In this document: in pieces, positions 2,133 through 20,047 of the stretch
Numbering within the stretch: position 1 is the first letter of the stretch
Layout: every line of letters starts with the position of its first letter
Assembly (NCBI GenBank): GCA_964590895.1
Contig: CAZPYV010000001.1
Location: forward strand, 262,164-326,163
From: an uncultured Methanoregula sp.
Lineage (GTDB): Archaea; Halobacteriota; Methanomicrobia; Methanomicrobiales; Methanospirillaceae
Reading direction: 5' to 3'
DNA: 64,000 nucleotides
Program-made: the position numbers and the translations under genes
Notes under the pieces: model-generated
The model's input: only the letters and a program-made list of their open reading frames with translations
What the model was told of the DNA's origin: nothing
Databases searched by the model: none

Positions 2133-4859
2133 CTACACCCGGAACTTCGTCATCTCCGAGCTCACATTCACAACAATACTATTTACTTTTCCCACAACTT
2201 TTGTGATCTCATCCAGCGCAGCCGACGCCTCTTCTGTTGCTGCGGCTGCATCACCGGCTTCTTTTGTCGTGCCCTGGATCAGGTTGCTGACTTCATTGAC
2301 ACTTGCGGTGATCTCTTCAACACTTGCGGCCTGTTCTTCAGTTGCTGCTGCCACATCCGAACTGCTCTGGGAGATCTTTGCCACAGACTCTACGATCTGG
2401 TTAAAGACGGTCAGGGTATCTTCAACATCCTTACTGCCTTGTGTCACCTGTTGCGTGGCCTGAACTACTGCTTCTGCGGATTTCTGGCTCCTCTTTTGGA
2501 GTTCTTCGATCATTGCTGCTATGTTTTCTGCCGAGCTGCGGGATTCCTGTGCAAGCGATTTGACTTCGGCAGCAACAACGGCAAACCCTCGCCCTGCATC
2601 GCCAGCCCGTGCCGCTTCGATAGCTGCATTGAGCGCAAGGAGATTGGTCTGGTTTGCGATATCGCGGATAAGCTTGACTATCTTTCCTATCTCTTTCATC
2701 TGGTTGTTGATCTCTAAGATGTTCGTATCAACGATCTTTGTTGAATCATTGATCCTTCCCATACTCTGGTTTGCCTTGCCAGCAAGTTTGACACCGTTAT
2801 CGCTGAGCGTATTGGTGTTCTTTGCCATACCCGCAACCGACTCCATCGAGGAGGCGACTTCTTCAACAGTTGATGAGAGGTCCGACATGGCTTTTAAGAC
2901 CTGCTCTATTCCGTGATCGCTCTTTTCAGCATTCTGGCTCACCTGGCCGGTATTCTTTGCAATCTGTGAGGCCCCTACAGAGATATCACGCACTCCGTTG
3001 TCGGCAGCTTTTGCTGCATCGGAAAGCTCAGCTACCTGCTGGTTGATGAGGACTACTGCTTTTGAGACTTCAATACCGATGTTGTTCAGTGAATCCTTAA
3101 ACAGTTGGAAATCCCCGGATACCTGTAATTTCTCATCCACCCGTGCAGCAAAATTACATTGGGCATATTCAATTGAGATCCGCAATGCCTCGTTGACGGG
3201 TTCGATTACCGAGTCAAGCGTTGAGTTTACCCCATTAACGATCTTTTTGTAGTCGCCCTGGTGTTTGCCTGCATCAGCGCGGGTCTTTAACTTGCCTTCA
3301 ACTGCTGCCTTTGCAAGCATGTTGGCATCGGCAGTGAGGGCGTTGATATTATCGATACAGTTGTTTAAATTATTCTTGATCTCATTGAAGTCGCCGTTGT
3401 ACTTATCGGTAATCTTTGACGGGATGTCGCCTTTGCTGATCCGGTCTACATATTCGGCTGCCACATTGAGCGGACCAATAACAGAGTCAAGGCAGTCATT
3501 CACACCCTTGACGATCTTCTGGTAGTCGCCGTGATGCCTGCTCGCATCTGCACGCGTGTCAAGTTTACCTTCAACTGCGGCCTTTGAGAGCAGACCGGCA
3601 TCAGCAACAAGTGCATTGACCGCGTCGATACAGTTGTTTAAATTATTCTTGATCTCATTGAAATCACCGTTGTAATTATCGGTAATTTTTGACGGGATAT
3701 CGCCTTTGCTGATCCGGTCTACATATTCGGCTGCCACGTTCAAAGGTCCGATCACTGCGTCAAGGCAGTCGTTAACTCCGGATACTATTTTCTTGAAGTC
3801 GCCCTGATGTTTGCCTGCATCTGCACGCGTGTCGAGTTTGCCTTCAACAGCAGCATTTGATAGCGAATTTGCATCAGAGACCAGAAGTCCGAGTGCCTCT
3901 TTTACATCGGAAAGATTTTTGTTTATGCCAAGGAACCATTCCCGTGCCTCTTTTGTTGTTTTCGAAGCAGGGGAGATCTCTAAGTTAAAGTCGAGGTCTC
4001 CTTTGGAGAGTTTGACCAGGTTGTCGGCTATAGAGGAGAGATAAGCAGAGATATAGTTGGCCAGTTCCTCGCGGTTTGCTTCTTCGAGCAGTTTTTCGGT
4101 GAGATCATTGTACACTGCCATGATGCTCACAATCTCCCCCTCTTTGTCAAGCAGGGGGATTGTGTGCTGTTCCAGATCGTGAGTGGCTTTGGGAAATTCC
4201 ACCGTGACTTGCCCGGTCACTCCTTTCTTGGTTGCTAATGCTTCCTTGAGATTGTGCCCGCTCTTTTTTAAGATTTTGAACTCCCGGATATTCATCTTCT
4301 GCAACGTCTCTTCAGTATATCCGCTCAGGGTGAGAAACGCTTCGTTTGCCAGTTTGATATTGAATTTTTTATCAATGATGAGGAGCGGCTGGGGATTTTG
4401 CATGATCATGGTAAAGGCGAGCTGGCGCTGTTTTTCCGCTTCATGTTTCTGCTTTGCGGTCTCTGCCTCCCGGGCCTTTCTTTGGGTATATTCCTCAATC
4501 TCCCGCCTTATTGCAGGAACGAGACGGGCATACTTCCCTTTGACAATGAAGTCGTGAGCTCCTGCCCGCATTGTATCCACGGCGGTATCTTCGCCGATGA
4601 CTCCGGAGATGATGATGACGGGAAAGTCACAGTTCATTTCTTTTAATAGGGCAAGGGCAGGCATAGCCCCAAACCCGGGGATGGAGTAATCGCACAGGAT
4701 GATATCCCATGTATCCTTGCTTAACGCGTCTCTCATATCGCGGGCAGTATCCACTCTTCGCTGCTGGATTTTTAGACCGCCCTTCACGAGCTCGTCAGTA
4801 ACAAATAATGCATCATCTGCCGAGTCTTCAACCATTAATACTCTGATCTCATCTTTCAT
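2133..4859 (-). CDS. soluble methyl-accepting chemotaxis protein with an N-terminal CheY-like receiver and a PAS domain (REC-PAS-repeat-MCP, 908 aa)
   Basis: Receiver motifs are present ([28 protein letters not shown]), followed by a PAS-like segment. There are about 2.5 copies of a 91-aa repeat ([62 protein letters not shown]). The C-terminal MCP signalling hairpin is present ([35 protein letters not shown]). I saw no TM helix. GAGGAGG lies upstream of the ATG at 4859. Confidence 0.9.
3270..4000 (-). repeat. in-frame 273-bp tandem repeat (about 2.5 units) inside the REC-PAS-MCP gene
   Basis: The anchor tcgatacagttgtttaaattattcttgatctcattgaa recurs at 3352 and 3625, giving a period of 273. 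Shadow ORFs 3265..3525 and 3811..4044 start with the same peptide. Confidence 0.75.
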
Positions 4860-4950
4860 TTTGTTTCTTTCCTCCTCATTTCCTGTTCATTATTGTACAA
4901 TTCATTCTCGATCCTGAATCTGGCTGTTATTCGATTTGTGGCGTATCTCG

Positions 4951-6060
4951 TCATCCAGGCCTCTTTGGAGGTCCAAGGCCCCCATCATTAAGCGTGAAAA
5001 ATACCGTTGTCCCGCCATTAACTGTGCTCTCAAGCCAGACGCTTCCCTCATGTCGGCTGATAATTTTCTCAACGATTGCAAGCCCGATACCGGTGCCGGG
5101 GAACTGCGATTCCGGATGGAACCGTTTAAACGGCGTGAACAGGTCTTTTGCATTCGCTGAATCGAATCCTTCTCCATTGTCCCGGACGAAACAAACAGAT
5201 CTGCCATCGATTAACTTCCTGCCAAATTCTATACTGATCGGGGACCGGTTCTTTGAAAATTTACAGGAATTGTCAAGGATCTGTTGCATTGCTTGTTCGA
5301 GCAGTGCCCTGTCACCCTGCACGATCACATCTTTTTCGATTTCCTGAACGAATTGTGATGGCTGCATCGGGTGCGGGAGTTTCTGGAGGGTAGTGTTTGC
5401 AAGGGAGGACAGGTTTACCTGCTCGTTTTTCATAGGACGGCGACCGGCCCGTGAGAGCTGGAGCAAATCCTCAAAATACGCATCCATCCGGGCTGTAGAA
5501 GCCCGGAGACGGCTGATGTGCTGCTGGGCATCTGCCGGCAGGTTGGCACTATATTTGTCAGAGAGGATCTTGCAATAGCCGTCAATGATCCTTAAAGGGG
5601 CCCTGAGGTCATGGGAGACCGAATAGGAAAAGGACTCAAAATCTTTTTGAGTTACTAAAAGTGCCTGCTCTGCGTGCCTGCATCTGTGCAGGTGCAGGAT
5701 TAAGTTCTTTAATTCTGCATACTGGACATCAGGCTGGGCTGATTTCTGGCAATAGAATGCAGCACCATTTTTTATGGCTTCTGCGGCATAGTCTTCTCGC
5801 GCAAATCCTGAAAACACAATGAGCGGGATATCGATACCCTTAACCTTCATGGCTTTGAGTAAACCGGTGCTGTCCATGCCCGGTGGCATCCGGTAATCAC
5901 AAATGATTACATCGAAATGCTGCACGGTGATCTTTTGAAGAGCATCTTCAGCAGAAAGCGATGTTTCAACCGCGATGGTCTTGTCATCTTCGAGAAACTC
6001 TTTTCCTATCTGGAGAAAATCCTTATCGTCATCGATAAGAAGTACGGGTATTTTATTCAT
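4951..6060 (-). CDS. hybrid sensor histidine kinase (REC-HisKA-HATPase)
   Basis: The N-terminal receiver is clear (VLLIDDDKDF, DVIICDYRMP). The H-box is SHDLRAPL, the N-box ILDNSCKF, and the G-boxes DNGEGF and GTGIGLAIV. I used the ATG at 6060 (MNKIPV...); the track ORF extends to 6087. Confidence 0.85.
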   Translation of the reverse strand: MNKIPVLLIDDDKDFLQIGKEFLEDDKTIAVETSLSAEDALQKITVQHFDVIICDYRMPPGMDSTGLLKAMKVKGIDIPLIVFSGFAREDYAAEAIKNGAAFYCQKSAQPDVQYAELKNLILHLHRCRHAEQALLVTQKDFESFSYSVSHDLRAPLRIIDGYCKILSDKYSANLPADAQQHISRLRASTARMDAYFEDLLQLSRAGRRPMKNEQVNLSSLANTTLQKLPHPMQPSQFVQEIEKDVIVQGDRALLEQAMQQILDNSCKFSKNRSPISIEFGRKLIDGRSVCFVRDNGEGFDSANAKDLFTPFKRFHPESQFPGTGIGLAIVEKIISRHEGSVWLESTVNGGTTVFFTLNDGGLGPPKRPG

Positions 6061-6229
6061 GGTACAAGTCTCATCGCTCCCGTGCAATGGAGCGGATTTA
6101 TTGTTTTATTCCTCATCGTAATGGTGACCATTGTATCGTGTTTCATGTTGTCCGGATACGGGGAGTTTGTGAAATGCATAATAGTCCTTTTTTTACAGAT
6201 AAGGGTGTTTAAGGAATACCGGATTTGTA

Positions 6230-6257
6230 TTTTTTTTAGCTTATCCGCTAAAAAAAA
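6230..6257 (-). terminator. T8 / A8-flanked palindrome directly downstream of cheW (oligo-T terminator candidate)
   Basis: The sequence ttttttttagc-ttatcc-gctaaaaaaaa is a perfect 11-nt inverted repeat. On the minus strand it presents a T8 run 16 nt after the stop at 6273, and a 185-nt AT-rich gap follows before the next gene. Confidence 0.45.
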
Positions 6258-6272
6258 GGACAATTTTATCAT

Positions 6273-6857
6273 TTACACTCCCTTCTTTTTTTCATCCAGG
6301 CTTTGGGTAAGTTGCCGGATGTCAATCCAGATGATGAGGTCGGTCTTTTCTTTCTCCTGCTCTTTTGTCTTTCTTCTGATGGTGCCGAGGATCGCTGGGT
6401 CTCCCCAGTTGCCGCCATCCTTGTTGATATCAATATCGGTATGTTCAAACGTGGATACCGCAAGGACATCGTCAACAAGCACACCGGTCTTGACCCGTGT
6501 AATCTTGTCATCAAGTACCATGATGCGGGAAGTTTCTTTTACCAGATTTTCCTGAACAGCGATGTTCAACCGCTCCCGCAGGTCAAGGATGGTTGTTATC
6601 TCTCCACGTAAATCGATGATACCCTGTACAGCTGCAGGTGCATTGGGAAGCGGGGTGATGGCAGTATATTCAACAACTTCCCGGATATCGGTTAAGTTGA
6701 CTGCATAATGTTCCTTTCCGAGCAGGAACTCCACCACATGAATGGCTTTTCCGGTCGGGCCCGCTGCCTGGGCAGTTGCCTTGCCATAGGCCGGCCCATC
6801 TGTCAGGGCCGGCTGGCCGGTGGGTTTTACGATTCCTTCTGTCGCTGTCATGGTCAT
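6273..6857 (-). CDS. cheW: chemotaxis coupling protein CheW (paralogue 2)
   Basis: The CheW-like domain is recognisable (VVEFLLGKEHYAVNLTDIREVVEY...IIDLRGEITTILDLRERL...GVLVDDV). I used the ATG at 6857 (MTMTATEG), which has GAGG just upstream. The track start at 6914 would overlap the upstream cheW. Confidence 0.85.
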   Translation of the reverse strand: MTMTATEGIVKPTGQPALTDGPAYGKATAQAAGPTGKAIHVVEFLLGKEHYAVNLTDIREVVEYTAITPLPNAPAAVQGIIDLRGEITTILDLRERLNIAVQENLVKETSRIMVLDDKITRVKTGVLVDDVLAVSTFEHTDIDINKDGGNWGDPAILGTIRRKTKEQEKEKTDLIIWIDIRQLTQSLDEKKKGV

Positions 6858-6888
6858 CCTCGTTTTAATCCTGGAATTTTTTAATGGA

Positions 6889-7485
6889 TCACGTGAGTGA
6901 CATTCCTTCGCCAATATCTTTGAGCAGGTACTTGATATCGACCCAGATGATCAGTTCGTTCTTCTCGTGGTCCTTATCCTTGACCTTCTTTTTTATGATA
7001 CCAAGGATCGCCGTGTCATCGTTTGCATCACCGGCTGAAGTCTTGTCGATATCGCTCAGATCGAAGGTTGAAACCGATGTCACATCATCGACCATAATCC
7101 CTGTTTTGGCTTTTGTGATCTTTTCGTCCAGAACGATGATTCGGCTGTTTTCATCATTTGTCTCAGCACCCGCAGCAATATGCAGGCGTTCTTTTAAGTC
7201 CACAATCGTGGTGATCTCGCCACGAAGATCGATGATACCTTTCATGTAGGAGGCGCTGTTTGGGAGTTTTGTGATGGTCGTGTATTCGACCACCTCCTTG
7301 ACATCGAAGAGGTCAACTGCGTAGTGCTCGTTTCCGAGCAGGAACTCAACGACCTGCAACATTCCCTTCTCATGTTTTCCCGCCTTTGTCTCTTTTATGG
7401 ACTGGTTTTTATCAGCAGCTTCTGTAGCCGAAGCAAGGGAGGAGGAGATTTTTTCCTCTTCTGTTGGCTTTGTAGATTTTGCCAT
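6889..7485 (-). CDS. cheW: chemotaxis coupling protein CheW (paralogue 1)
   Basis: The CheW-like domain is recognisable (VVEFLLGNEHYAVDLFDVKEVVEY...GIIDLRGEITTIVDLKERL...GIMVDDV). GGGGGT lies upstream of the ATG. Confidence 0.9.
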   Translation of the reverse strand: MAKSTKPTEEEKISSSLASATEAADKNQSIKETKAGKHEKGMLQVVEFLLGNEHYAVDLFDVKEVVEYTTITKLPNSASYMKGIIDLRGEITTIVDLKERLHIAAGAETNDENSRIIVLDEKITKAKTGIMVDDVTSVSTFDLSDIDKTSAGDANDDTAILGIIKKKVKDKDHEKNELIIWVDIKYLLKDIGEGMSLT

Positions 7486-7500
7486 TTCAGTACCCCCGAA

Positions 7501-10500
7501 TCAGCACTTGAACTTCGAGACTTCTTTGGTCACTTTGTCAACAATATTGTTCACATTGCCAATGACCTTTGAGATCTGATCAATTGCGGCAGCTGACTCT
7601 TCGCTTGCCGCAGCGGCATCAGTTGACTCCTTTGCCGTGCTCTGCATCAGACCGTTCACTTCATTGACACTGGCTGTTACTTCTTCGACCGAAGCTGCCT
7701 GTTCTTCAGCTGCAGCTGCTACATCGCTGACGTTCTTGCTCACCTGGTCGATCGATTCGACAATCTTGGTGAAGCTGCTCAGGGTGTCATGCAGGGCTTC
7801 ACTGCCTTCCCGGACTCCGGTGTTGGCAGAAGCGACTGCATCTACTGCATTGTTGGTCTTGGACTGGAGGTTGTTGATCATCTCAGAGATCTTCTCTGCT
7901 GATGCCCGTGACTCGACTGCAAGCGACTTGACTTCAGTTGCGACAACTGCAAATCCGCGTCCTGCATCTCCAGCCCTTGCTGCTTCAATGGCTGCATTGA
8001 GGGCTAACAGGTTTGTCTGGTTTGCAAGGTCGGTGATGAGGTTGACGATCTCGCTAATTTTGTCCATCTGTCCTTTGATCTCAAGGATGATGACATTGAC
8101 ATCGTTTGAAGACTTGGTGATCCCCTGCATGCCGTTTTCGGTCTTCCTTGCAAGGTCCATACCTTCCTTGCTGTACGTGGTGGTGTCCTGCACAAGTTTT
8201 GCGGTGACATCGGCACGAGTAGCTACTTCCTGGATAGTGCGGGAGAGATCTTCCATGGCTTTCTGTACCTGTTCGATACCCGCCATTGATTTCTCGACAT
8301 TGGTGCTGACCGCACTGGTGTTCTTTGCTACCTGACCTGCACCTGCAGTAACTTCTTCAACGCTGGCATTCGCCTCTTCGGCTCCTGCGGCAAGGTCGGT
8401 TACCTGAGAACTGATGTTGGTGACTGCGGTTGAAACTGCAACCCCGATATTGTTCAATGCTTCTTTGAAGGCTAACCAGTCGCCGGGCACTTTGAGGTTG
8501 TTGTCCACACGTGTGGTGAAGTCCTGAGTTGCATATCCTTTCGATACGCGGAGAGCTTCATTGACCGGTTCAATAACTGAGTCGAGCGTCTGGTTGACAC
8601 CATCAACAATCTTCTTGTAGTCGCCGGTGTGTTTGCTGGCATCCGCACGGGTCTTGAGTTTACCTTCATCCGCTGCCTTTGCGAGCATAGCTGCATCGGC
8701 TACGAGCATGTTGACTGCGTCGATACAGTTGTTGAGGTTATTCTTGATCTCGTTGAAGTCGCCGTTGTAGTTGTCAGTGATCCTAGCAGGTATGTCTCCT
8801 TTTGATATGCGGTCTACATATTCCGCTGCCACATTGAGTGGGCCGATCACAGAGTCCAGAGTTTTGTTAATACCCTCAATAACTACCTTATACTCGCCCT
8901 GGTGCTTGCTGGCATCCGCACGGGTATCGAGTTTTCCTTCCTCTGCGGCTTTTGCCAGCATCTTAGAGTCAACCAGCAGATTTTCAACGGTCTGAAGGCA
9001 ATTTATGATCGCAGGCAGCAGGTGGTCTTGCTCACTCCGTTTCCCGACCTTTATGAGATCTGGTAGTTCTTTGGTGTCTCCCATAGCGATCTCGTTGATC
9101 TGCTTGGTCACACCAAGGAGCCGTTCGCGGACCATATTGGTCGATTCCGCAGTCGAGGCAAAGATACCCTGGTACTTGCCTTCGACTTTCTGGGAGTGAT
9201 CGTTCATTGCCATGCAATGGAGGACACGATCAGACTCAACAAGCCCCTGCATCCCATCAATACAGTTGTTTAAGTTGTTCTTGATCTCGTTGAAATCACC
9301 ATTGTAGGTATCGGTGATCTTCTTTGGGACTTCACCTTTGGAGATCCGGTCAACATATTCCGCTGCCACATTGAGTGGGCCGATCACAGAGTCCAGAGTT
9401 TTGTTAATACCCTCAATAACTACCTTATACTCGCCCTGGTGCTTGCTGGCATCCGCACGGGTATCGAGTTTTCCTTCCTCTGCGGCTTTTGCCAGCATCT
9501 TAGAGTCAACCAGCAGATTTTCAACGGTCTGAAGGCAATTTATGATCGCAGGCAGCAGGTGGTCTTGCTCACTCCGTTTCCCGACCTTTATGAGATCTGG
9601 CAGTTCTTTGGTATCTCCCATGGAGATCTCGTTGATCTGCTTGGTCACACCAAGGAGCCGTTCGCGGACCATATTAGTCGATTCGGCGGTCGAGGCAAAG
9701 ATACCCTGGTACTTCCCTTCGACTTTCTGGGAGTGATCGTTCATGGCCATGCAATGGAGAACACGATCACACTCGACAAGCCCCTGCAGCCCATCAATAC
9801 AGTTGTTTAAGTTGTTCTTGATCTCGTTGAAATCGCCGTTGTAGGTATCGGTGATCTTCTTTGGGACGTCCCCTTTGGAGATCCTGTCTATGTACTCTGA
9901 AGTGACTTTGATTGGATGTACAAAAGCCTCGATAAGGTCATTGACCCCGCCAACCAGTTTGCCCCATCCACCGTTAAACTTCTGGGCGTTTCCGCGGGTC
10001 TGAAGTTTCCCGTCCTGGGTTGCCTTGATGAGTCCGTTTGTCTCGTCAAGGAGGCCGTTCATGACATCAATACAGTTGTTGAGATTGTTCTTGATCTCGT
10101 TGAAGTCGCCATTGTAGGTGTCTGTGATCTTCGGAGGAATGTCGCCTTTGGAGATCCGGTCCACATATTCTGCCGTAACATTAATCGGGTGGACAAATGC
10201 ATCGACCAGTTCATTGACACCGCCAACAAGCGTACCCCATCCTCCGGGGAACTTCTGGGAGTTGCCGCGTGTGTCAAGTTTTCCTTCTTTTGTAGCTTTA
10301 ATGAGTCCATTGGTCTCGGCAAGGAGGCCGTTCATCACGTCAATACAGTTGTTCAGATTGTTCTTGATCTCGTTGAAGTCGCCATTGTAGGTGTCTGTGA
10401 TCTTCGGAGGAATGTCGCCTTTGGAGATCCGGTCCACATATTCTGCCGTAACATTAATCGGGTGGACAAATGCATCGACCAGTTCATTGACACCGCCAAC

Positions 10501-11778
10501 AAGCGTACCCCATCCTCCGGGGAACTTCTGGGAGTTGCCGCGTGTGTCAAGTTTTCCTTCTTTTGTAGCTTTAATGAGTCCATTGGTCTCGGCAAGGAGG
10601 CCGTTCATCACGTCAATACAGTTGTTCAGATTGTTCTTGATCTCGTTGAAGTCGCCATTGTAGTTGTCAGTGATCTTCGGGGGGATGTCACCTTTGGAGA
10701 TACGGTCCACATACTCAGCCGTAACATTGAGGGGTCCAATAACTGCATCGAGCGTCTTGTTGACTCCTTCAACGATATTCCTGAAATCACCCTGATGTTT
10801 GGTTACATCAGCACGGGTGTCGAGTTTCCCATCAACTGCTGCCTTTGCGAGTATTCTGGCATCTTCAGTCATCGCATTGATAGCATTTGTCATCGTGATA
10901 AGAGCAGGGCTGATCTCATCCTGATTGTCCTTGGCTTTGACAACGGTTGAGAGATCTCCAACGGCAATCTTCTTCATTACTGCGACCACATTGTTCTGAA
11001 GATCATCCGAGAAGGAATCCATCACCGAAGCCATCTCACCGATCTCGTCCTTCCGGCTCATCTTCATCCGGTTGCCGAGGTGTCCCATGCCCATCTCTTT
11101 TAAGTTCTTGCTGGCAAGGTCAAGAGGCGCAGTGATGCTCTTAGAGAGGAAGAGTGCGAGTGCGATCGCGATGATGACACCAACGATAGTTGCGATGATC
11201 ATCATCATGCTGCTGCTGTTGTAGAGCGCAGTGTTGGCGTCGGAGAGCTTCTTTGCCTCATCCGTATTGATCTTAACAAGATCTGTAATTGCGGCGACCG
11301 CACCAGTCCGTGCATTGATAAGCGGGGAACCTGGAGTTAAAGCGGCATCGACCGTTCTCATATCATTTTTGTCAGCGGCTGCAATAGCATCATCAAACAG
11401 CTTATCCCATTGAGCATAGTTTGCATCAAACGACGCTAAACTGGTCTTCTCACTAGGGGTCAGAGATGTGGCCCGATACGCGTCCAGCTCTTTCTTGATA
11501 TTGACCCGCAAATTCGCAATTGTTGTTTGAGTTGAAGACCGTGCGGAAGGGACATAGACATACCGGTAAAGTTCAGCCCGCATCTGCTGAAGATCTGCAT
11601 CCACAGATCCCAACTGTCCAAGCGGAATTGTACGATCCTGGTACAATTCAGTATCCGCTTTATCCAATGCTCCCATGTTCATGTAACCGATCGCCGCCAC
11701 AACGACGAGGATCAGCACAACGATCAGGAATCCCCCGATCAGTTTCTTCCCGATTTTCATGTCATCAATGAAACTCAT
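7501..11778 (-). CDS. giant transmembrane methyl-accepting chemotaxis protein (1425 aa) with a very long HAMP-like repeat stalk
   Basis: TM1 ([20 protein letters not shown]) is followed by a helical extracellular region of about 170 aa, then TM2 ([21 protein letters not shown]) and a HAMP domain. About 800 aa of repeats follow, containing six NNLNNCID motifs. The C-terminal signalling domain is present ([35 protein letters not shown]). Confidence 0.95.
8720..9793 (-). repeat. 2 x 537-bp in-frame tandem duplication (179-aa unit) within the giant MCP gene
   Basis: The anchor tc(a/g)atacagttgtt occurs at 8720, 9257 and 9794, a spacing of 537. Stretches such as 8821-9060 and 9358-9597 are nearly identical by eye. 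Shadow ORFs 8771..8995 / 9314..9532 and 9005..9199 / 9542..9736 give near-identical peptides. Confidence 0.9.
9794..10612 (-). repeat. 3 x 273-bp in-frame tandem repeat (91-aa unit); the last two units are essentially identical
   Basis: The anchor tcaatacagttgtt occurs at 9794, 10067, 10340 and 10613. Shadow ORFs 10118..10390 and 10391..10663 translate to identical 90-aa peptides. The 9794 unit is clearly diverged. Confidence 0.92.
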
Positions 11779-11839
11779 TTTTTAAAACCTCGTTTTTTCC
11801 TCATGCATTACTGGATTTCCCTCATTCTCCCGCTTGATA

Positions 11840-11960
11840 AGGCTGGGATGCAGGGCCACGATGTACCCTGCCCCGCACCCCGTGCTGTGTTGGGGCACAC
11901 CCAGGCGCATGCCGGGGGCGTGCCGTCGAAATACCCGGAACTCCGGGCGGAATGTGGGCG
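11840..11960 (-). other. GC-rich hairpin-dense patch in the putative 5' leader of the giant MCP gene
   Basis: The hairpins are GCAGGG-n10-CCCTGC, GCAC-ccc-GTGC and CCCGG-aact-CCGGG, embedded in otherwise AT-rich intergenic DNA. A TTTATATA box (minus-strand reading of 11984-11991) lies just upstream. Confidence 0.3.
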
Positions 11961-12111
11961 AAACAATCTTTTGTCAAGCATGCTATATAAATCTACTGTG
12001 CTATGATGATGATAAGCAATGATTAAAATAGATGAACAAATATGATAACTATTACCAATCGCCGCAAAGGGGAAATTGCGGAATCTATAAGGGTGGGAGC
12101 ATGACGAAAGC

Positions 12112-13779
12112 ATGGTAAAAGATAATGAAATCCTGCGCATCCGTGACGAGCTGGAGCGCAACCCGAAGGGGATGACCATTGAAGATGTCTCCCAGAAACT
12201 ATCGATGAACCGTGGCACTGCGGCAAAATACCTCAACCTGCTGGTGGTTTCGGGACAGGCAGAGATGCGCACGCTGGGCCCTGCAAAGCTCTTCTCCATT
12301 TCCCAGCGGGTACCGCTCTCCCAGATGCTCAGTGTCTGGACGGATTTGATCCTGATCCTTGATGCAGATCTCTTCATCCAGCAGGTAAACGACGCTCTTC
12401 TTTCCTATTTCCAGCTCGATCGCAATCAACTCATGGGCGTGCAGCTCACCCACTCGCCGCTAGCCCAGTATTTTACCGATGAACATCTCGACACACTAAA
12501 ATCCGCACTCGAAGGCGAAGAAAAAATCTTTGAAGAAGAGATCGAGATCCACGGAAAGGTCCATTCGTTCCGGATAAAAGTCCTCCCACTGGTCTTTGAC
12601 CAGGGAGGCAAGGGTATCGGCACGATCCTTATCGATATCACTGGAATCAAAGCCTACCAGAATGATCTTGAAAGTAAAGTTAAGGAGCGCACCGATCTTT
12701 TAAATGAAACAAATGTTGAACTGGAACGGCGAATCCGGGAGTATAAGAAGATCGAAAAAGCTCTGGTAGAATCTGAAGAAAAGTACCGGGCGCTGGTCGA
12801 TAATATCACTGAAGTGATCTTTACTATCAATGACCATGGCGTGATTACCTATATCTCTCCTGCGATTACTCCCATCTGTGGATTTTTACCGGATGAATTG
12901 CTCGGACGCCCAATAGCAGATTTTGTCCTTAGTGAGGATCTGGTCTCGTTTACCAAAGGTCTTGATAAGAGCAAGAGCGGAAATATCAGCCCGTTTGAAT
13001 TCCGTATCGTTGCAAAAGATGGCGGACTCCGCTGGGTACATGCATCAGGAAAACCGGTTGAACACGCGGGAGCTCCGGACGGATACCAGGGCATGATTAC
13101 CGACATCCATGAACAGAAGCGTGCCGAAGATACGCTGCGCAGGGCAAACAAACAGATTGTCCTCTTAAACAGCATCACGCGCCATGATATCTTAAACGGC
13201 ATCACAAAGCTCCTTGCCTATCTCGATATCGCAAAGCGCCAGACCAAAGATGCAAAACTCTTAGAACTGCTCGACAAGGAAAAAGAGATCACAAACACCA
13301 TCCAGCGCCAGATCACGTTCACCCGCGACTACCAGAACATCGGCATCCGTCCCCCGCAGTGGAAGGACCTTGGCACCAGCATAAGGGACGCAGCAACCGA
13401 AGTGAATCTTGGAAAAATTACCCTGTCAGTAACGGTTGACAAGACAAAAATATTTGCCGACGATCTCATTGAAAAAGTATTTTGCAACCTGATGGAAAAT
13501 TCAGTGCAGCATGGGGGAAAGGTTACTGCGATCACCTTCTCTTCCAAAAAGAAAGGCAAGGTGCTCGTAATTACCTGTGAAGATAATGGAACGGGTATCG
13601 CAAAAGAAGAAAAAGAACTTATCTTTGAGCACAGCCGGGGCGGCAGGATCAACTACGGGCTCTTCTTCTCACGAGAAGTGCTCTCCATCACCGGTCTCAC
13701 CATCAAAGAGACCGGTACAGCAGGCAGCGGTGCCCGGTTTGAAATTACGGTTCCAGAAGAGATGTTCCGGGGGGCATAA
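12112..13779 (+). CDS. wHTH-PAS-PAS sensor histidine kinase (555 aa)
   Basis: The N-terminal winged helix is MTIEDVSQKLSMNRGTAAKYLNLLVVSGQAEM. A coiled-coil linker and PAS segments follow. The H-box-like motif is ITRHDILNG, and the ATPase motifs are NLMENSVQHG, EDNGTGI and GLFFSREV. Confidence 0.85.
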   Translation: MVKDNEILRIRDELERNPKGMTIEDVSQKLSMNRGTAAKYLNLLVVSGQAEMRTLGPAKLFSISQRVPLSQMLSVWTDLILILDADLFIQQVNDALLSYFQLDRNQLMGVQLTHSPLAQYFTDEHLDTLKSALEGEEKIFEEEIEIHGKVHSFRIKVLPLVFDQGGKGIGTILIDITGIKAYQNDLESKVKERTDLLNETNVELERRIREYKKIEKALVESEEKYRALVDNITEVIFTINDHGVITYISPAITPICGFLPDELLGRPIADFVLSEDLVSFTKGLDKSKSGNISPFEFRIVAKDGGLRWVHASGKPVEHAGAPDGYQGMITDIHEQKRAEDTLRRANKQIVLLNSITRHDILNGITKLLAYLDIAKRQTKDAKLLELLDKEKEITNTIQRQITFTRDYQNIGIRPPQWKDLGTSIRDAATEVNLGKITLSVTVDKTKIFADDLIEKVFCNLMENSVQHGGKVTAITFSSKKKGKVLVITCEDNGTGIAKEEKELIFEHSRGGRINYGLFFSREVLSITGLTIKETGTAGSGARFEITVPEEMFRGA

Positions 13780-13845
13780 GCTGTGATTAACACTATGAGA
13801 AAAAAATGGCAGATACACAAAATAATCAGAGCGAGGAAAACTTAA

Positions 13846-14361
13846 ATGGCAGAAGCTGAAGCATCGTCTCAGGCAACCGGAAGATCCGGAATGGACGAAA
13901 TAATTGAAGTAGTAGAATTCGCGCTGGGCGGTAAACGGTATGCACTCGACATCCAGCTGGTCCGGGAAATTGTGGTGATGATGCCTATCACCCCCATCCC
14001 GCGTGCTCCGGAATTCGTATCGGGCGTGCTCAACCTTCGCGGTGAGATCACCTACATCATCAACCTAAACAAACTTCTGGATGTGGAAGACCCAGAGATT
14101 AGAAAGGACCAGAAAATTATCGTCTTTGTACCGGCAGCTGCCAAGAAAAATAATGTCGGGATCATTGTCGATAATGTGAGCAGTGTCTTTCAGGTGCCAG
14201 AAGAAGATATTGAAAAGATACAGGACAATGCCTCATCAAAGATCTCAGGTTTTGTAAAAGGGATTATCAAATTAAAGAGCGATGATCACGAGAAGAAGAG
14301 CAAAGGACTGCTCATCTGGATTGATATGGAAAAAATTTTTTCCGGTATGATACCCCAATAA
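13846..14361 (+). CDS. cheW: chemotaxis coupling protein CheW (paralogue 3)
   Basis: The CheW-like domain is recognisable (VVEFALGGKRYALDIQLVREIV...VLNLRGEITYIINLNKLL...GIIVDNV). Confidence 0.9.
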   Translation: MAEAEASSQATGRSGMDEIIEVVEFALGGKRYALDIQLVREIVVMMPITPIPRAPEFVSGVLNLRGEITYIINLNKLLDVEDPEIRKDQKIIVFVPAAAKKNNVGIIVDNVSSVFQVPEEDIEKIQDNASSKISGFVKGIIKLKSDDHEKKSKGLLIWIDMEKIFSGMIPQ

Positions 14362-14398
14362 ATCCCCAAAACTTTTAAAAACCGCGAAATCATTGGTG

Positions 14399-15235
14399 AT
14401 GCTTAATAATCATCCTGAGGCAGACATGGACGATTTTGATACCCTGAAACGATACATTGAACAGACGTTAAAGATCCAGTGTTCGAGTTACAAAGAGGAT
14501 TATATCAAGCGCCGTCTCTTATCAAGGATGCGCTCTACCAATTCTGCAGACTACGGGGCGTATCTCCGGTACCTCAAGATAACTACTCCTGAACTCGAAT
14601 TGTTAAGAAACGCGCTAACCGTTAATGTTACAGAATTTTTCCGCGACATTGAAGTCTATGATGCGATCAGAAAAGAAGTCCTGCCCGATCTTTTCAAACA
14701 GCGAAAACGTCTCAGGATCTGGAGCGCCGGTTGTTCAACCGGAGAAGAACCTTATTCGCTTGCCATGATCCTCCACGAAATGATGTCAATCAACAAGGAA
14801 ATATCCGCACAGATCCTTGCCACTGATATCGATCTGGTGGTGCTGGGTAAAGCCAAAGAGGGTATCTTCTCGCCAAAAGCCATGGTTAAACTCACCGAGA
14901 CCCAGACTCACCGGCATTTCAACAAGCTTCCTAATGGCGATTTCCAGGCCAAACAACATTTAAAAGATTTAATCAAGTTCACCCCAAACGATCTGATGTC
15001 TGGTATCCCTGTCTCACGGTATTTGGATCTCATCACCTGCCGTAATGTGACCATATATTTCAATGAAAAGCAAAAGGATGAACTCGCACGCACATTCCAT
15101 GGCGCACTTGTGGCTGATGGTTACTATATCATGGGTAAGACAGAATATCTCGGACGGGCAGTAGACGGGCTCTTTACTGCGAAAAATACTGCACAGAAAA
15201 TTTTTGTGAGAAAGGAACCTGCAAAGACGGTTTGA
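14399..15235 (+). CDS. cheR: chemotaxis protein methyltransferase CheR
   Basis: The CheR N-terminal helical domain is followed by the SAM-binding domain (TEFFRD, LRIWSAGCSTGEEPYSLAM, ILATDID, FDLITCRNVTIYF). I used the ATG at 14399 because the track start at 14393 is TTG. Confidence 0.9.
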   Translation: MLNNHPEADMDDFDTLKRYIEQTLKIQCSSYKEDYIKRRLLSRMRSTNSADYGAYLRYLKITTPELELLRNALTVNVTEFFRDIEVYDAIRKEVLPDLFKQRKRLRIWSAGCSTGEEPYSLAMILHEMMSINKEISAQILATDIDLVVLGKAKEGIFSPKAMVKLTETQTHRHFNKLPNGDFQAKQHLKDLIKFTPNDLMSGIPVSRYLDLITCRNVTIYFNEKQKDELARTFHGALVADGYYIMGKTEYLGRAVDGLFTAKNTAQKIFVRKEPAKTV

Positions 15236-17581: not shown

Positions 17582-20047
17582 CTAGCGGGAATGAAGTTGC
17601 CTGAAAACCCGGCTGGCATCAGATTTTTTCCTTTCATCAATGTTCTGGGCAATGGTAGAGATACCGATAATGTGACCTTCTTCATCCTTGATGGGTGAAA
17701 GGGTTACACTGACTTTAACACGGGATCCATCTTTTCGTAGCCGGATCGTATCGAAACGTTCAATGGTCTCACCAGTCGCCACCCTCTTTAGGAAGAGGGG
17801 GATCTGATCGCGAAATTCCGGAGGAATAATGAGGCTGATATGATTTCCAATCACCTCTTCTGCAAGATAGCCGTAATACCGTTCCGCAGCTTTATTCCAG
17901 CTCTGGATTGTGCCGTCAAGTGTTTTTCCGATTATCGCATCATTTGAAGAATTCACAATCGATGCAAGTATAGAGCGCAGCCGGTCGGATTCTGTTTTGT
18001 CGGTTAAATCTTCATATACGACAAACTGTTCACTGCTTTTAAGGGTAATCGGACAGAAATGGATCTGGCGGACAGACCCGTCTTTGCAGGTAATCGGAAA
18101 TAAGCGGGGTTTTGCCAGATCCCAATCTTCACAACGATCCTGATTCCAGGTCTTAATTGCGTTCGTGCGATCAGTAATTTCGGGAAATGCCTTTAAAAAC
18201 CAGTCTTTTTCTGTGGGAATATCAGTAATTGTGTACCCAAAAATTTTTTCGAATTTTTTGTTCAGGTACCGGTAATTTCCTGAACTGTCGATTAAGGATA
18301 AAGGAAATGGAGAGAGTTCAGTGATCATCCTGAAGCGCTCCTCATTTTCGCGGATTTTTTGTATCAGTTCCTGTTTTTCTGTGGTATCAATTCCAACGGA
18401 TTGGTATTCTATTACTTTTCTGTCGGTATTAAAAATTGCACGATCTGTCCAGAAATGCCACCGTATTTTACCGTCAGGCAAAATTACCCGGTGTTCGATC
18501 GTCCCTGTGGGATTTTCTAAAGTAAGTGAAGCGAGATGCTGTTTCATCAACCCGGCATCTTCGTCCGGCAAAACCACTTTATGTGGACTCCCGATGCACG
18601 CACTTTTGTTCAATCCAAAATACCGGCAATATGCATCATTGACAAACGTGATGATTCCATCGGGGGTGAACCGGCAGATAAATTCGGTCTGGTCCTCTAC
18701 CACATTCCGGAATCGCTCTTCGCTCTCAATATGTGCCAATTCGATCCGTTTCCGTTCAGAAATATCCCTAAAAAACCCTTCAACACCAGTGATATTTCCC
18801 TCTGAGTCGTACAGGAGCTGACTGTTTGTGGATACAATTACCGTAGATCCATCCCTTTTTTTTAGGGTAATTTCATAATCAGTAACTTTTTTCTCCCGGT
18901 AAATAGTTTCCAGAAATTGTTTGCGTTCCTGAGATGAATAGTAAAACTTTTCAGCAATATTCTGCCCGATTATTTCCTGAAGAGAATCGTAGCCCAGCAG
19001 TTTTGACGCTGAAGGGCTGGCCATTATAAGGTTGCCATCTTTGTCAGAGCGGTAGTATATGTCCTGAATATTATCAAGAATGGTCCTGTACAATAATTCA
19101 CTCTGACGAAGCGCTTCTTGCGATTCTTTAAGCTCTGTGATGTCCCGCCCCACAGACTGGCATTCGGTAAGGGTGCTGTTTTTATCATAGAACCCACGGG
19201 TATTCCACTGGTGCCAGCGATACTTTCCGGTTCTGTCCAGTATCCGAACTTCAGTATACATGCCCTGCTTGGTTTTATTTATATCAGTGATCCTTTCCCG
19301 TACAAGACCGTGATCCTCAGGGAATATATAGGAAAAAATATTCTGTCCGCAAACGCCTTTACTGGAGATTCCAAGGTAACGGCTCAAGGATTCATTGATG
19401 AACGTGATAGTCCCGTCAGGGTGCCAACGGCAGATATAGTCGGTCTGGTCTTCAACAATGCCACGGAACCGTGCTTCAGAGATCATCAGGCGCTCTTCAA
19501 ACCGAATCTGTTCTGTGATGTCTTCTCCAATTACCGTCATTCCCTCTTCCCGGTTATCAAATACCGTTGGTATCAGACGAACCCGGTAATGGTAATCTTC
19601 GTTTTGTCGGGTTACGACAAATTCCCTCTGGATTTCTCCGGTTACCTGGATCTCTTTAAAAACATCCGGAATGGAAAGACGCGAGATAATAGGGGAGGTA
19701 AGATCATCTACCCGGTTTCCGATCAGATCATTTCTGGGTAATCCAAGAACCGTAAGAGCGTTCTCATTAACATCGAGAATGCGCATTTCCTGATCGATCA
19801 TGATAATAAAATCAGCAGAAAATTTGAGCATGGCTGATACAGGCATCTTGTGTGAGATCGTGTAGACCTTTGCAGGGCCGTATGAATTGAGGGCAACCTC
19901 TCCGGAGATAAGAAGCATTTCAAGATATTTTGCTGTTGAGTTCCGGTTGAGTTTAAGTTTATTGGCAATATCTGTTATTGTGAGCCCGTTGCGGTGAAGT
20001 TTAAGGAGAGTCAGAATTTTCTTTTGGGGCTCTGGACGGATATCCAT
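17582..20047 (-). CDS. wHTH + multi-PAS (about 6 units) sensor protein without a recognisable output domain
   Basis: The N-terminal winged helix is LTITDIANKLKLNRNSTAKYLEMLLISGEV. PAS/PAC-like units then repeat up to the stop, each introduced by ..E.RFR..VE.. segments. I used the ATG at 20047 (MDIRPE) because the track start at 20092 is TTG. Confidence 0.85.
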   Translation of the reverse strand: MDIRPEPQKKILTLLKLHRNGLTITDIANKLKLNRNSTAKYLEMLLISGEVALNSYGPAKVYTISHKMPVSAMLKFSADFIIMIDQEMRILDVNENALTVLGLPRNDLIGNRVDDLTSPIISRLSIPDVFKEIQVTGEIQREFVVTRQNEDYHYRVRLIPTVFDNREEGMTVIGEDITEQIRFEERLMISEARFRGIVEDQTDYICRWHPDGTITFINESLSRYLGISSKGVCGQNIFSYIFPEDHGLVRERITDINKTKQGMYTEVRILDRTGKYRWHQWNTRGFYDKNSTLTECQSVGRDITELKESQEALRQSELLYRTILDNIQDIYYRSDKDGNLIMASPSASKLLGYDSLQEIIGQNIAEKFYYSSQERKQFLETIYREKKVTDYEITLKKRDGSTVIVSTNSQLLYDSEGNITGVEGFFRDISERKRIELAHIESEERFRNVVEDQTEFICRFTPDGIITFVNDAYCRYFGLNKSACIGSPHKVVLPDEDAGLMKQHLASLTLENPTGTIEHRVILPDGKIRWHFWTDRAIFNTDRKVIEYQSVGIDTTEKQELIQKIRENEERFRMITELSPFPLSLIDSSGNYRYLNKKFEKIFGYTITDIPTEKDWFLKAFPEITDRTNAIKTWNQDRCEDWDLAKPRLFPITCKDGSVRQIHFCPITLKSSEQFVVYEDLTDKTESDRLRSILASIVNSSNDAIIGKTLDGTIQSWNKAAERYYGYLAEEVIGNHISLIIPPEFRDQIPLFLKRVATGETIERFDTIRLRKDGSRVKVSVTLSPIKDEEGHIIGISTIAQNIDERKKSDASRVFRQLHSR

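What the first reader, a model, noticed from the sequence alone, without database searches (positions are those of the whole stretch)
7501..11778. 1425-aa chemoreceptor with a repeat stalk of about 800 aa built from about 45-aa HAMP-like half-units, each long unit carrying a conserved Cys
About 800 residues lie between the membrane-proximal HAMP and the signalling hairpin. They consist of alternating half-repeats, ..ISKGD(I/V)[22 protein letters not shown].. and ..EGKLDTR(A/G)...K..G.(F/W/Y)...V.GVN.L.D..(I/V).P(L/I)... This makes roughly 18 half-units, including diverged ones, and six invariant NNLNNCID motifs.

Each half-unit resembles the G-D-L/hydrophobic-heptad pattern that follows HAMP AS1/AS2 helices, so this looks like an extreme poly-HAMP-like rod. 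The same module occurs in the neighbouring REC-PAS-MCP.

A cytoplasmic stalk this long would not fit the canonical chemoreceptor array geometry. The recurrent single Cys could be a redox or metal-sensing feature, or purely structural.
Basis: partly seen in the sequence, partly recalled or inferred. Interest (0 to 1): 0.62.

Follow-up and report, generated by a model that had tools for sequence, protein, structure and literature searches.

The report
Membrane chemoreceptor with 20-HAMP rod
This methanogen gene encodes a membrane chemotaxis receptor whose sensor and kinase-control tip are joined by a rod of about 20 chained HAMP relay domains, but this receptor type is already described and common, and many relatives carry longer rods.

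Summary
The ORF at 7501-11778 (-) encodes a 1425-aa receptor: 4HB sensor with two TM segments, about 900 aa of repeats, then a 44H-class MCP signalling domain.

Each 45-aa "half-unit" is a complete HAMP domain. Pfam HAMP_2 matches seven times (652 bits). The repeats also match the solved AskA poly-HAMP structure (9TRK, E 6e-20).

My parse is H1-H2-(A-B)4-(X-Y-A-B)2-A-B', which is 20 HAMP units. A is the non-canonical type and B the canonical type. The two 88-aa Cys/His-containing inserts (X-Y) are internal copies of the membrane-proximal H1-H2 pair (hhalign 97%, E 2e-11).

This is the chemoreceptor-type poly-HAMP array of Dunin-Horkawicz & Lupas 2010 and Coles et al. 2026. It is not extreme. 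More than 6,400 homologues were found, with up to 42 A/B HAMPs (2255 aa) and lengths up to 2368 aa.

The array grew by recent in-frame duplication. One 273-nt unit pair is 98.9% identical, and a 537-nt unit is duplicated at about 95%. A 92%-identical metagenome allele lacks exactly one 179-aa unit, and a congener has only four HAMPs.

The NNLNNCID Cys occupies a heptad core position of helix AS2 of the canonical HAMP. It is the family consensus (70% Cys, otherwise L/A/V/T/M), so it is most likely structural.

Verdict: an ordinary new member of a known kind.

The parts
7501..11778 (-). Complete 1425-aa transmembrane poly-HAMP chemoreceptor gene (P0001).
   Evidence: Pfam matches: 4HB_MCP_1 6-186, HAMP 210-261, HAMP_2 x7, MCPsignal 1233-1377.
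11137..11778 (-). Residues 1-214: TM1 (about 8-33), extracytoplasmic four-helix-bundle sensor, and TM2 (about 188-212).
   Evidence: Pfam 4HB_MCP_1 at E 7e-36 and TarH at E 3e-12. Two hydrophobic 19-mers lie at residues about 7-21 and 187-201.
10873..11136 (-). Residues 215-302: the membrane-proximal di-HAMP. H1 is canonical. H2 is divergent, with motifs IAvGDL and DEIsPAL.
   Evidence: H1 matches Pfam HAMP at 100 bits. H2 alone matches Pfam HAMP weakly (E 0.0014, below cut-off). The pair is conserved in TM-anchored homologues.
9781..10872 (-). Residues 303-666: four 91-aa di-HAMP modules, (A-B)x4. A is the non-canonical 'EGKLDTRAD...G-F/W/Y...GVN' type. B is the canonical '[17 protein letters not shown]...[15 protein letters not shown]' type.
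10054..10599 (-). Residues 394-575: two tandem 273-nt di-HAMP units with identical protein sequence and 98.9% nt identity (3 synonymous differences). This is a very recent duplication.
9517..9780 (-). Residues 667-754: X1-Y1, an 88-aa internal copy of the H1-H2 di-HAMP. It contains non-conserved Cys/His residues (C670, H675, C676, H681, C748).
   Evidence: No Pfam hit. X resembles B (hhalign 96%, E 3e-9). XY resembles H1-H2 (hhalign 97.3%, E 1.8e-11 over 82 columns). The AF2 model shows helix-connector-helix twice at pLDDT about 90. The extra Cys/His are not conserved among 72 XY copies.
9244..9516 (-). Residues 755-845: di-HAMP A5-B5.
8980..9243 (-). Residues 846-933: X2-Y2, the second copy of the XY module (95.5% nt identity to X1-Y1).
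8707..8979 (-). Residues 934-1024: di-HAMP A6-B6. Together with X2-Y2 it forms the duplicated 179-aa super-unit.
   Evidence: the B-X-Y-A frame is 94.6% nt identical between the two copies; a 92.5%-identical allele (P0008) lacks exactly residues 825-1003.
8425..8706 (-). Residues 1025-1118: the terminal di-HAMP A7-B', the output HAMP pair that joins the signalling bundle.
   Evidence: HAMP_2 scores 54.7 bits at own-genome C1:270603-270797. The same A-B' pair is present in the 4-HAMP congener.
7501..8424 (-). Residues 1119-1425 plus the stop codon: the MCP adaptation and kinase-control hairpin, class 44H.
   Evidence: Gapless alignment of residues 1121-1422 to T. maritima Tm1143, residues 6-307 (PDB 2CH7, E 6e-30). 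Pfam MCPsignal.
2133..4859 (-). Neighbouring soluble REC-PAS-poly-HAMP-MCP (908 aa, 7 HAMPs). It is the only other MCP in the genome.
6273..7485 (-). Two CheW genes (6273-6914 and 6889-7485) immediately downstream of the receptor on the same strand.
   Evidence: Pfam CheW at E 5e-26 and 5e-28.
13846..15235 (+). A third CheW (13846-14361) and CheR (14393-15235).

Best explanation
The gene encodes a transmembrane, 44H-class methyl-accepting chemotaxis protein of a Methanoregula-type methanogen. A chemoreceptor-type poly-HAMP array of about 20 directly concatenated HAMP domains joins its extracytoplasmic four-helix-bundle sensor to the kinase-control hairpin. The parse is H1-H2-(A-B)4-(X-Y-A-B)2-A-B'.

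Shown here:
- The domain identities, the alternation of non-canonical A and canonical B HAMPs in 91-aa di-HAMP modules, and the homology of X-Y to H1-H2.
- Recent intragenic amplification in steps of 2 or 4 HAMPs.
- Variable copy number among close relatives, and wide occurrence of longer arrays.
- The chemotaxis partners: three CheW and one CheR in the window, with CheA and CheB on another contig.

Inferred from published work on this family (Coles et al. 2026; Airola et al. 2010; Dunin-Horkawicz & Lupas 2010):
- The homodimer forms one continuous, supercoiled four-helix rod, in which AS2 of each HAMP runs straight into AS1 of the next.
- A ligand-induced change at H1 is relayed as alternating helix rotation (x-da in canonical units, da-x in non-canonical units) down to the methylation and CheA/CheW-binding hairpin.
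- Because length changes only by whole di- or tetra-HAMP cassettes, the number of HAMPs stays even. The relatives I examined have 4, 10, 14, 16 or 20 units. The sign of the output should therefore be preserved while the rod length changes.

The NNLNNCID cysteine is a buried heptad-core residue of AS2 in each canonical HAMP and serves packing.

From helix lengths I estimate a rod of about 42 nm, and about 65 nm from membrane to baseplate. That would be a tall array, but a self-consistent one, because this is the only membrane-anchored receptor in the genome.
For: - Pfam: HAMP_2 at 652 bits over 7 stretches, HAMP, 4HB_MCP_1 and MCPsignal. HAMP_2 occurs in the own genome only in these two genes.
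- PDB sequence search: 9TRK/9TRJ (AskA poly-HAMP) at E 6e-20 and 3e-18. Tm1143 (2CH7) aligns without gaps over 302 residues.
- Unit parsing.
- X resembles B at hhalign 96%. XY resembles H1-H2 at 97.3%, E 1.8e-11.
- The AF2 model of A4-B4-X-Y-A5 has mean pLDDT 80 (about 90 over X-Y-A5). It shows continuous 27-31-residue helices separated by connectors. The best fold matches are the Aer2 poly-HAMP entries 4I3M, 4I44 and 3LNR, with probability 0.89-0.99.
- Amplification: 98.9% and about 95% nt identity between copies. An allele lacks one 179-aa unit. A congener has 704 aa and only H1-H2-A-B'. Relatives in the genus range from 704 to 1321 aa.
- Family size: at least 6,419 homologues at E<=1e-20, with up to 21 A + 21 B units. 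At least 574 loci occur in species genomes of many phyla, and the closest are Methanoregula MAGs.
- Cys column: 841 of 1204 are Cys, the rest L/A/V/T/M. Some proteins are all Leu or all Ala, and the Cys aligns with a Met in AskA.
- Partners: CheW x3 and CheR; CheA and CheB on contig C5; only 2 MCPs in the genome.
- Literature: PMC13446029 and PMC7184735.
Against: - Nothing here is experimental. Expression, dimer structure, array formation and ligand are all unknown.
- Only a monomer could be modelled, so the four-helix bundle and the burial of the Cys are inferred from heptad spacing and homology. Foldseek E-values were weak (0.1-0.3).
- Y and H2 have no significant similarity to the A or B types (hhalign probability <=21%). 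H2 alone is below the Pfam HAMP cut-off. These four units are therefore HAMPs by topology and context only.
- The B-to-X junction places two canonical-like HAMPs in a row. This departs from strict canonical/non-canonical alternation and makes the parity argument uncertain.
The shorter P0008 allele comes from a short-read metagenome contig that may have collapsed a repeat.
Confidence: 0.85

Rival explanations
1. The poly-HAMP rod is itself the sensing element rather than a passive relay. It would respond to a physical or cytoplasmic variable such as osmolarity or ionic strength, temperature or pH, as proposed for the poly-HAMP of fungal group III histidine kinases. Copy number would then tune sensitivity. 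The 4HB domain would be a second input.
For: Most described arrays of this family lack any upstream input domain (PMC13446029), and 68 of 120 long homologues here have no TM segment. So the array can function without an extracytoplasmic sensor. Copy number evolves fast, as expected of a tunable element. The B-type unit is extremely conserved across phyla.
Against: This receptor does have a complete 4HB sensor, two TM segments and a canonical H1. A congener works with only four HAMPs. Coles et al. report that chemoreceptor-type arrays are predicted to sit in stable conformations, unlike kinase-type arrays. There is no direct evidence for any stimulus.
Confidence: 0.2
2. The conserved Cys in every canonical HAMP forms a redox-sensitive ladder. 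Oxidation would cross-link the two AS2 helices of the dimer, or a metal would bridge them, and lock the rod. The receptor would then act as an oxidant or O2 sensor for a strict anaerobe.
For: Cys, rather than a generic hydrophobic residue, is the consensus at 70% of 1204 B-type units, and 40 of 121 proteins have Cys in every unit. The residue lies at a heptad core position, where symmetry mates in a parallel dimer are close (an inference). Named homologues appear to come mostly from anaerobes (my impression from the record titles, not counted).
Against: Whole proteins have replaced it with Leu (several Methanospirillum homologues, 9-12 of 10-13 units) or Ala (P0026, 11 of 12 units). It aligns with a Met in the solved AskA array. 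There is only one Cys per HAMP and no partnering His or Cys. The additional Cys/His of the X-Y units are not conserved. The family also occurs in aerobes such as Methylomonas and Limnobacter.
Confidence: 0.06
3. The extreme length is an assembly artefact: a mis-expanded tandem repeat, or a decaying gene rather than a functional receptor.
For: Two unit pairs are 95-99% identical at the DNA level, and short-read assemblers handle such repeats poorly. Reads could not be examined.
Against: The frame is open over 4.3 kb, and the differences between the AB2 and AB3 copies are synonymous. The architecture follows the family grammar exactly. Thousands of homologues, some from complete genomes, are as long or longer. 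An artefact would change the copy number by one or two units but would not change the nature of the protein.
Confidence: 0.05

Closest known systems
Chemoreceptor-associated poly-HAMP arrays, HAMP groups A/B (Dunin-Horkawicz & Lupas 2010; Coles et al. 2026, PMC13446029; example WP_274427672; Pfam HAMP_2 PF18947)
   Same: Both have 91-aa di-HAMP modules of a non-canonical A and a canonical B HAMP, directly concatenated upstream of an MCP signalling domain. Both have near-identical modules within one array, produced by intragenic amplification. Both have a Gly at the junctions and a bulky aromatic residue at the start of AS2 in the A type.
   Different: The paper presents the family as soluble receptors that typically lack an input domain. 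This one has a 4HB sensor, two TM segments and a canonical membrane-proximal HAMP, which is nevertheless common in databases (49 of 120 long homologues). It also re-uses a copy of the H1-H2 pair (X-Y) inside the array, giving a 179-aa tetra-HAMP super-unit. I did not find that mentioned in the paper.
Pseudomonas aeruginosa Aer2 multi-HAMP receptor (PDB 3LNR, 4I3M, 4I44, 3VOL)
   Same: Both have concatenated HAMPs with alternating conformations ahead of an MCP domain. According to Coles et al., HAMP2 of Aer2 falls in group A. These are the best fold matches to my model, and there is a weak sequence match of the X unit to 3VOL.
   Different: Aer2 has only 5 diverse HAMPs interrupted by a haem-PAS domain and is class 36H. 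Here there is no PAS, there are 20 HAMPs in repetitive modules, and the class is 44H. The NCBIfam Aer2 model scores 363 bits against a cut-off of 1200.
Kinase-type poly-HAMP arrays: Myxococcus xanthus AskA/AskB (PDB 9TRK, 9TRJ) and fungal group III histidine kinases (Nik1/Os-1)
   Same: Both are long arrays (21 and 31 HAMPs in AskA and AskB) of alternating canonical and non-canonical HAMPs with the same linker lengths. There is a significant sequence match (E 6e-20).
   Different: Those arrays use different HAMP groups (C/D), are held to be of independent origin, and have a GAF-histidine-kinase-receiver output and a Trp at the interface. Here the output is an MCP hairpin acting through CheW and CheA.
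Thermotoga maritima Tm1143 (PDB 2CH7), a 44H-class signalling domain
   Same: There is a gapless 302-residue alignment of the adaptation and kinase-control hairpin.
   Different: The solved 2CH7 chain (309 residues) covers only the signalling hairpin and has no poly-HAMP array.
Tall F7 chemosensory arrays of gammaproteobacteria (Ortega et al. 2020, PMC7184735)
   Same: They set a precedent: receptors with extra cytoplasmic HAMP/PAS layers build separate, taller arrays (35-40 nm against 24-25 nm).
   Different: Those receptors carry 2-5 HAMPs plus PAS domains. A 20-HAMP receptor would be roughly 65 nm tall by my estimate. I know of no imaged array of that height.

Membership tests
Chemoreceptor-type poly-HAMP array (groups A/B; Pfam HAMP_2) | Five or more consecutive, directly connected HAMP domains. 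| tested here: met
   There are 7 HAMP_2 matches above the cut-off. Parsing gives 7 A, 6 B, B', 2 X, 2 Y, H1 and H2 with no spacer between units.
Chemoreceptor-type poly-HAMP array (groups A/B; Pfam HAMP_2) | Repeating di-HAMP modules that alternate a non-canonical (A) and a canonical (B) HAMP. | tested here: met
   The period is 91 aa, and type-specific HMMs recover the order A-B-A-B.... The exception is the two X-Y inserts, where a canonical-like X follows B.
Chemoreceptor-type poly-HAMP array (groups A/B; Pfam HAMP_2) | The array lies immediately upstream of a methyl-accepting (MCP) signalling domain. | tested here: met
   MCPsignal matches at E 4e-43, and the region aligns to 2CH7 starting at residue 1121, directly after B'.
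Chemoreceptor-type poly-HAMP array (groups A/B; Pfam HAMP_2) | Conserved Gly at HAMP-HAMP junctions and a bulky hydrophobic residue (mostly Phe) at the start of AS2 in the non-canonical HAMP. | tested here: met
   Read directly from the unit alignment. A units have G-D/G/E-F/W/Y. G and P lie at the A-to-B junction and G at the B-to-A junction. The family consensus is 'QGDF'.
Chemoreceptor-type poly-HAMP array (groups A/B; Pfam HAMP_2) | Homodimeric stack of parallel four-helix bundles with continuous AS2-AS1 helices. | tested here: inconclusive
   The monomer AF2 model shows continuous 27-31-residue helices and connectors. The top fold hits are Aer2 poly-HAMP but with E 0.1-0.3 and TM 0.2-0.3. 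A dimer could not be modelled with these tools.
Chemoreceptor-type poly-HAMP array (groups A/B; Pfam HAMP_2) | Soluble protein without an upstream input domain. This is described as typical, not as defining. | tested here: not met
   The protein has a 4HB_MCP_1 sensor and two hydrophobic segments. Of 120 long homologues, 49 are also TM-anchored.
MCP heptad class 44H | Signalling hairpin of 44 heptads, with no indels relative to 44H reference receptors. | tested here: met
   Residues 1121-1422 align without gaps to Tm1143 residues 6-307. That Tm1143 is a 44H reference receptor rests on my own knowledge (Alexander & Zhulin 2007).
Aer2-type aerotaxis transducer | Haem-binding PAS domain embedded between HAMP domains, and an equivalog-level match. 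| tested here: not met
   P0001 has no PAS domain. NCBIfam transduc_aer2_vibrio scores 363 bits against a cut-off of 1200.
Kinase-type (C/D) poly-HAMP, AskA/Nik1 | [quoted passage not shown] | tested here: not met
   The output is an MCP domain. Only 3 of the 7 A units have Trp at that position; the others have Phe or Tyr.

The most novel reading that the evidence does not exclude
The single core cysteine in every canonical HAMP forms a ladder of symmetry-related Cys pairs along the dimer axis. On oxidant or O2 exposure these pairs would cross-link reversibly and freeze the rod in one rotational state. The poly-HAMP array itself would then be a graded cytoplasmic redox sensor for an oxygen-sensitive methanogen, with the number of rungs (six here) setting the gain and changing quickly through repeat amplification.
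Probability: 0.05. Interest if true: 0.6.

Novelty: new member of a known kind. Interest (0 to 1): 0.18.

Why it matters
As it stands this is an annotation result. The long "stalk" is a standard chemoreceptor-type poly-HAMP array, which has a Pfam model, a solved relative and a 2026 paper devoted to the family.

Three things give it modest value.
1. It is a clean natural series. Near-relatives in one genus carry 4, 10, 14, 16 and 20 HAMPs on what appears to be the same receptor backbone. That series could be used to test whether rod length changes signal sign, gain or array height.
2. The genome has only two chemoreceptors, both poly-HAMP. That makes it a simple system for imaging a very tall array (predicted about 65 nm).
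3. The X-Y unit shows that whole four-HAMP cassettes, including a copy of the membrane-proximal pair, are re-used inside arrays.

None of this changes current understanding.

Tried and rejected
- Metal or redox site in the extra Cys/His of the 88-aa inserts ([19 protein letters not shown]). Rejected: these residues vary freely among 72 homologous X-Y copies.
- X-Y as a foreign, non-HAMP insertion. Rejected: there is no Pfam hit, but hhalign links X to B and X-Y to H1-H2, and AF2 gives HAMP-like topology.
- Y as an A-type or B-type HAMP. Not supported (hhalign probability <=21%). It is homologous to H2 instead.
- Precomputed family PF27212 listed for this protein. It is a faint 'BrxC_7th' hit and irrelevant.
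- Jackhmmer started from X-Y drifted into all HAMP repeats and was not used as evidence. The third iteration of the A and B profiles merged the two types, so I used the first-round profiles.
- Exact-sequence look-up of P0001 found no record.
- Foldseek against the PDB gave only weak E-values, because the monomer model is not rod-shaped. I used it only as a direction-of-evidence check.
- 'Extreme length' was rejected after the homologue survey.

Full report
**1. Observation**

The minus-strand ORF at 7501-11778 is intact and encodes 1425 aa. Motif scans find 7 copies of 'GKL.TR', 6 of 'SKG[DE][IV]P' and 6 of NNLNNCID, spaced 91 aa apart except for two 179-aa steps. Tandem Repeats Finder reports the 273-nt period here (9792-10728) and in the neighbouring gene (3238-3877).

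**2. What the units are**

Pfam assigns these domains:
- 4HB_MCP_1 at 6-186
- HAMP at 210-261
- HAMP_2 (PF18947), seven stretches, 652 bits
- MCPsignal at 1233-1377

The HAMP_2 model straddles two consecutive HAMPs. Read directly, each 45-46-aa "half-unit" is a full AS1-connector-AS2 HAMP.
- Type A: [28 protein letters not shown](F/W/Y)xxIVxGVNxTLDaV
- Type B: P[43 protein letters not shown]

A sequence search of the PDB hits the 4- and 6-HAMP crystal structures of the Myxococcus xanthus AskA poly-HAMP array (9TRK at E 6e-20, and 9TRJ) and, weakly, Aer2. The signalling domain aligns without a gap over 302 residues to Thermotoga Tm1143 (2CH7), so by my knowledge of that reference it is class 44H.

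**3. The two 88-aa inserts**

Residues 667-754 and 846-933 contain extra Cys and His and have no Pfam match.

The same module recurs in 24 of 121 proteins in the set, often with a 179-180-aa period, and sometimes sits at the very start of an array. Its extra Cys and His are not conserved.

Profile-profile comparison shows that the first half (X) is a canonical, B-like HAMP (96%, E 3e-9). The whole module is homologous to the membrane-proximal H1-H2 pair of TM-anchored family members (97.3%, E 1.8e-11 over 82 columns). The second half (Y) shares with H2 the motifs 'IAxGD' and 'D-x-L/I-x-P-A'.

An AlphaFold2 model of A4-B4-X-Y-A5 was built from a 26-sequence alignment. Mean pLDDT is 80, and about 90 over X-Y-A5. 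It gives continuous helices of 27-31 residues separated by connectors, with a short extra helix in the Y connector. Its best PDB fold matches are the three Aer2 poly-HAMP entries, although the E-values are weak.

The full parse is therefore H1-H2-(A-B)4-(X-Y-A-B)2-A-B', which is 20 HAMP units. H2 and the two Y units are supported by homology to each other and by topology, not by a HAMP family score.

**4. Literature**

Coles et al. 2026 (Protein Sci, PMC13446029) describe this family. It consists of chemoreceptor-associated poly-HAMP arrays built from di-HAMP modules of non-canonical group A and canonical group B HAMPs.
[quoted passage not shown] - They found 723 such chemoreceptors.
- They cite arrays of 'dozens' of HAMPs and a 31-HAMP kinase, AskB.
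- They propose that each di-HAMP is a self-contained toggle: rotation is reversed in the first domain and reversed back in the second, so long arrays can pass a signal.
- They describe the family as soluble and typically lacking an input domain.

**5. How unusual is this copy?**

It is not unusual.
- The homologue search returned at least 6,419 proteins at E<=1e-20 among the 8,000 candidates scored. Lengths reach 2368 aa.
- With type-specific HMMs, the 119 listed homologues have a median of 20 A+B units and a maximum of 42 (P0003, 2255 aa). This protein has 13.
- At least 574 loci occur in species-representative genomes. They include Methanoregula, Methanospirillum, Methanolobus, Syntrophorhabdaceae, Acidobacteriota, Bacteroidota, Clostridia, Desulfobacterota and Planctomycetota.
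- The closest named relatives are Methanoregula MAGs (70-96% identity), which fixes the organism.
- Of the 120 long homologues, 49 carry two TM-like segments upstream of the array, so membrane-anchored versions are common too. That sample is biased by my query.

**6. Evolution of the array**

Units AB2 and AB3 are identical in protein sequence and 98.9% identical in DNA, with 3 synonymous differences. The 537-nt B-X-Y-A unit is duplicated at 94.6%.

A metagenome allele that is 92.5% identical (P0008, 1246 aa) differs by a single clean 179-residue gap, which is exactly one super-unit. It comes from a short-read contig, so a collapsed repeat is possible.

Within the genus, homologous receptors have open frames of 704-1321 aa. 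The 704-aa one has a very similar first ~25 residues, although its sensor domain as a whole is only about 40% identical, and a 73%-identical signalling domain. It carries only H1-H2-A-B'.

All length steps are whole di- or tetra-HAMP cassettes, so the HAMP count stays even: 4, 10, 14, 16, 20. Under the toggle model this keeps the output sign. That is my inference, and the B-to-X junction of two canonical-like HAMPs makes it uncertain.

**7. The cysteine**

In the B-type AS2 ([14 protein letters not shown]), the residues F, I, L and C fall on a 3-4-3 spacing, which marks a/d core positions.

Across 1204 B-type units the column holds Cys 841, Leu 147, Ala 98, Val 53, Thr 27 and Met 26. Forty of 121 proteins have Cys in every unit. 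Several Methanospirillum proteins have Leu in nearly all units, and one protein has Ala. In the alignment to AskA the Cys pairs with a Met.

So the Cys is the family consensus for a buried position and is replaceable by hydrophobic residues. A packing role is the most economical reading. A redox ladder is not excluded, and I rate it at about 5%.

**8. Array geometry**

The genome is 2.59 Mb and 98.5% complete. It has only two MCPs, this one and the soluble REC-PAS-7-HAMP receptor two genes away. It also has three CheW and one CheR in the window, and one CheA and one CheB on contig C5.

My length estimate runs as follows.
- The modelled helices give about 14 residues, or about 2.1 nm, of axial advance per HAMP.
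- Twenty HAMPs give about 42 nm.
- A 44H hairpin with about 151 residues per arm adds about 23 nm.
- The total is roughly 65 nm from membrane to baseplate.

The same arithmetic gives about 24 nm for a 40H single-HAMP receptor. That matches the 24-25 nm measured by cryo-ET, and Aer2-type receptors with extra layers form separate 35-40 nm arrays (PMC7184735).

Only one receptor is membrane-anchored, so no height mismatch arises.

**9. Verdict**

The poly-HAMP reading is correct, but the array is neither new nor extreme, and the Cys is probably structural. This is a new member of a known kind, of low interest.

The small additions are the identification of X-Y as an internal copy of the H1-H2 pair and the natural 4-to-20-HAMP series within one genus.

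Noticed in passing
whole genome (G000); window 2133-15235: The 2.59-Mb genome encodes only two MCPs. Both lie in this cluster and both are poly-HAMP: one is TM-anchored with 20 HAMPs, the other is soluble (REC-PAS, 7 HAMPs). CheA (651-aa frame) and CheB (356-aa frame) lie elsewhere, on contig C5 at about 151-154 kb.
   Followed up: partly
window 6273-7485 (-) and 13846-14361 (+): Three CheW paralogues serve a system with one CheA and two receptors. Two of the genes overlap by 26 nt directly downstream of the long MCP.
   Followed up: no
window 4951-6087 (-): A REC-HisKA-HATPase hybrid kinase sits between the two MCP genes, next to the REC-headed soluble MCP. It may feed a phosphorelay input into that receptor.
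   Followed up: no
P0003 (JGI metagenome protein, 2255 aa) and P0004 (Methanospirillum sp., 2368 aa): These homologues carry 21 A + 21 B and 19 A + 18 B HAMPs. Both exceed the 31-HAMP AskB array that the 2026 paper cites as a long example.
   Followed up: partly
B-type HAMP units in P0001 and homologues from many phyla (L012-L091): The canonical B unit is almost invariant from methanogens to Acidobacteriota, Bacteroidota and Clostridia. The stretch [11 protein letters not shown] is 70-99% conserved per column, mostly at or above 90%. This is unusually strong conservation for a 45-aa coiled-coil module and may reflect horizontal spread as well as constraint.
   Followed up: no
window 667-754 / 846-933 in protein coordinates (9517-9780 and 8980-9243 in nt): The X-Y module has no Pfam model of its own. 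It recurs in 24 of 121 proteins in the set, either inside arrays with a 179-180-aa period or as the N-terminal cap of soluble arrays. In a few proteins (for example P0101) it follows an A unit instead of a B unit.
   Followed up: partly
own genome C2:142646-143173: A second CheB methylesterase domain lies inside a 1049-aa open frame. It is probably a CheB-fusion sensor protein unrelated to the che operon.
   Followed up: no
window 12112-13779 (+) and 17582-20092 (-): A PAS-PAS histidine kinase is transcribed divergently from the long MCP. Nearby is an 836-aa protein with at least five PAS domains and no recognised output domain.
   Followed up: no
window 11808-12377 (-): This 189-aa ORF has no family match and overlaps the start of the + strand kinase gene. 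It is probably not a gene.
   Followed up: no
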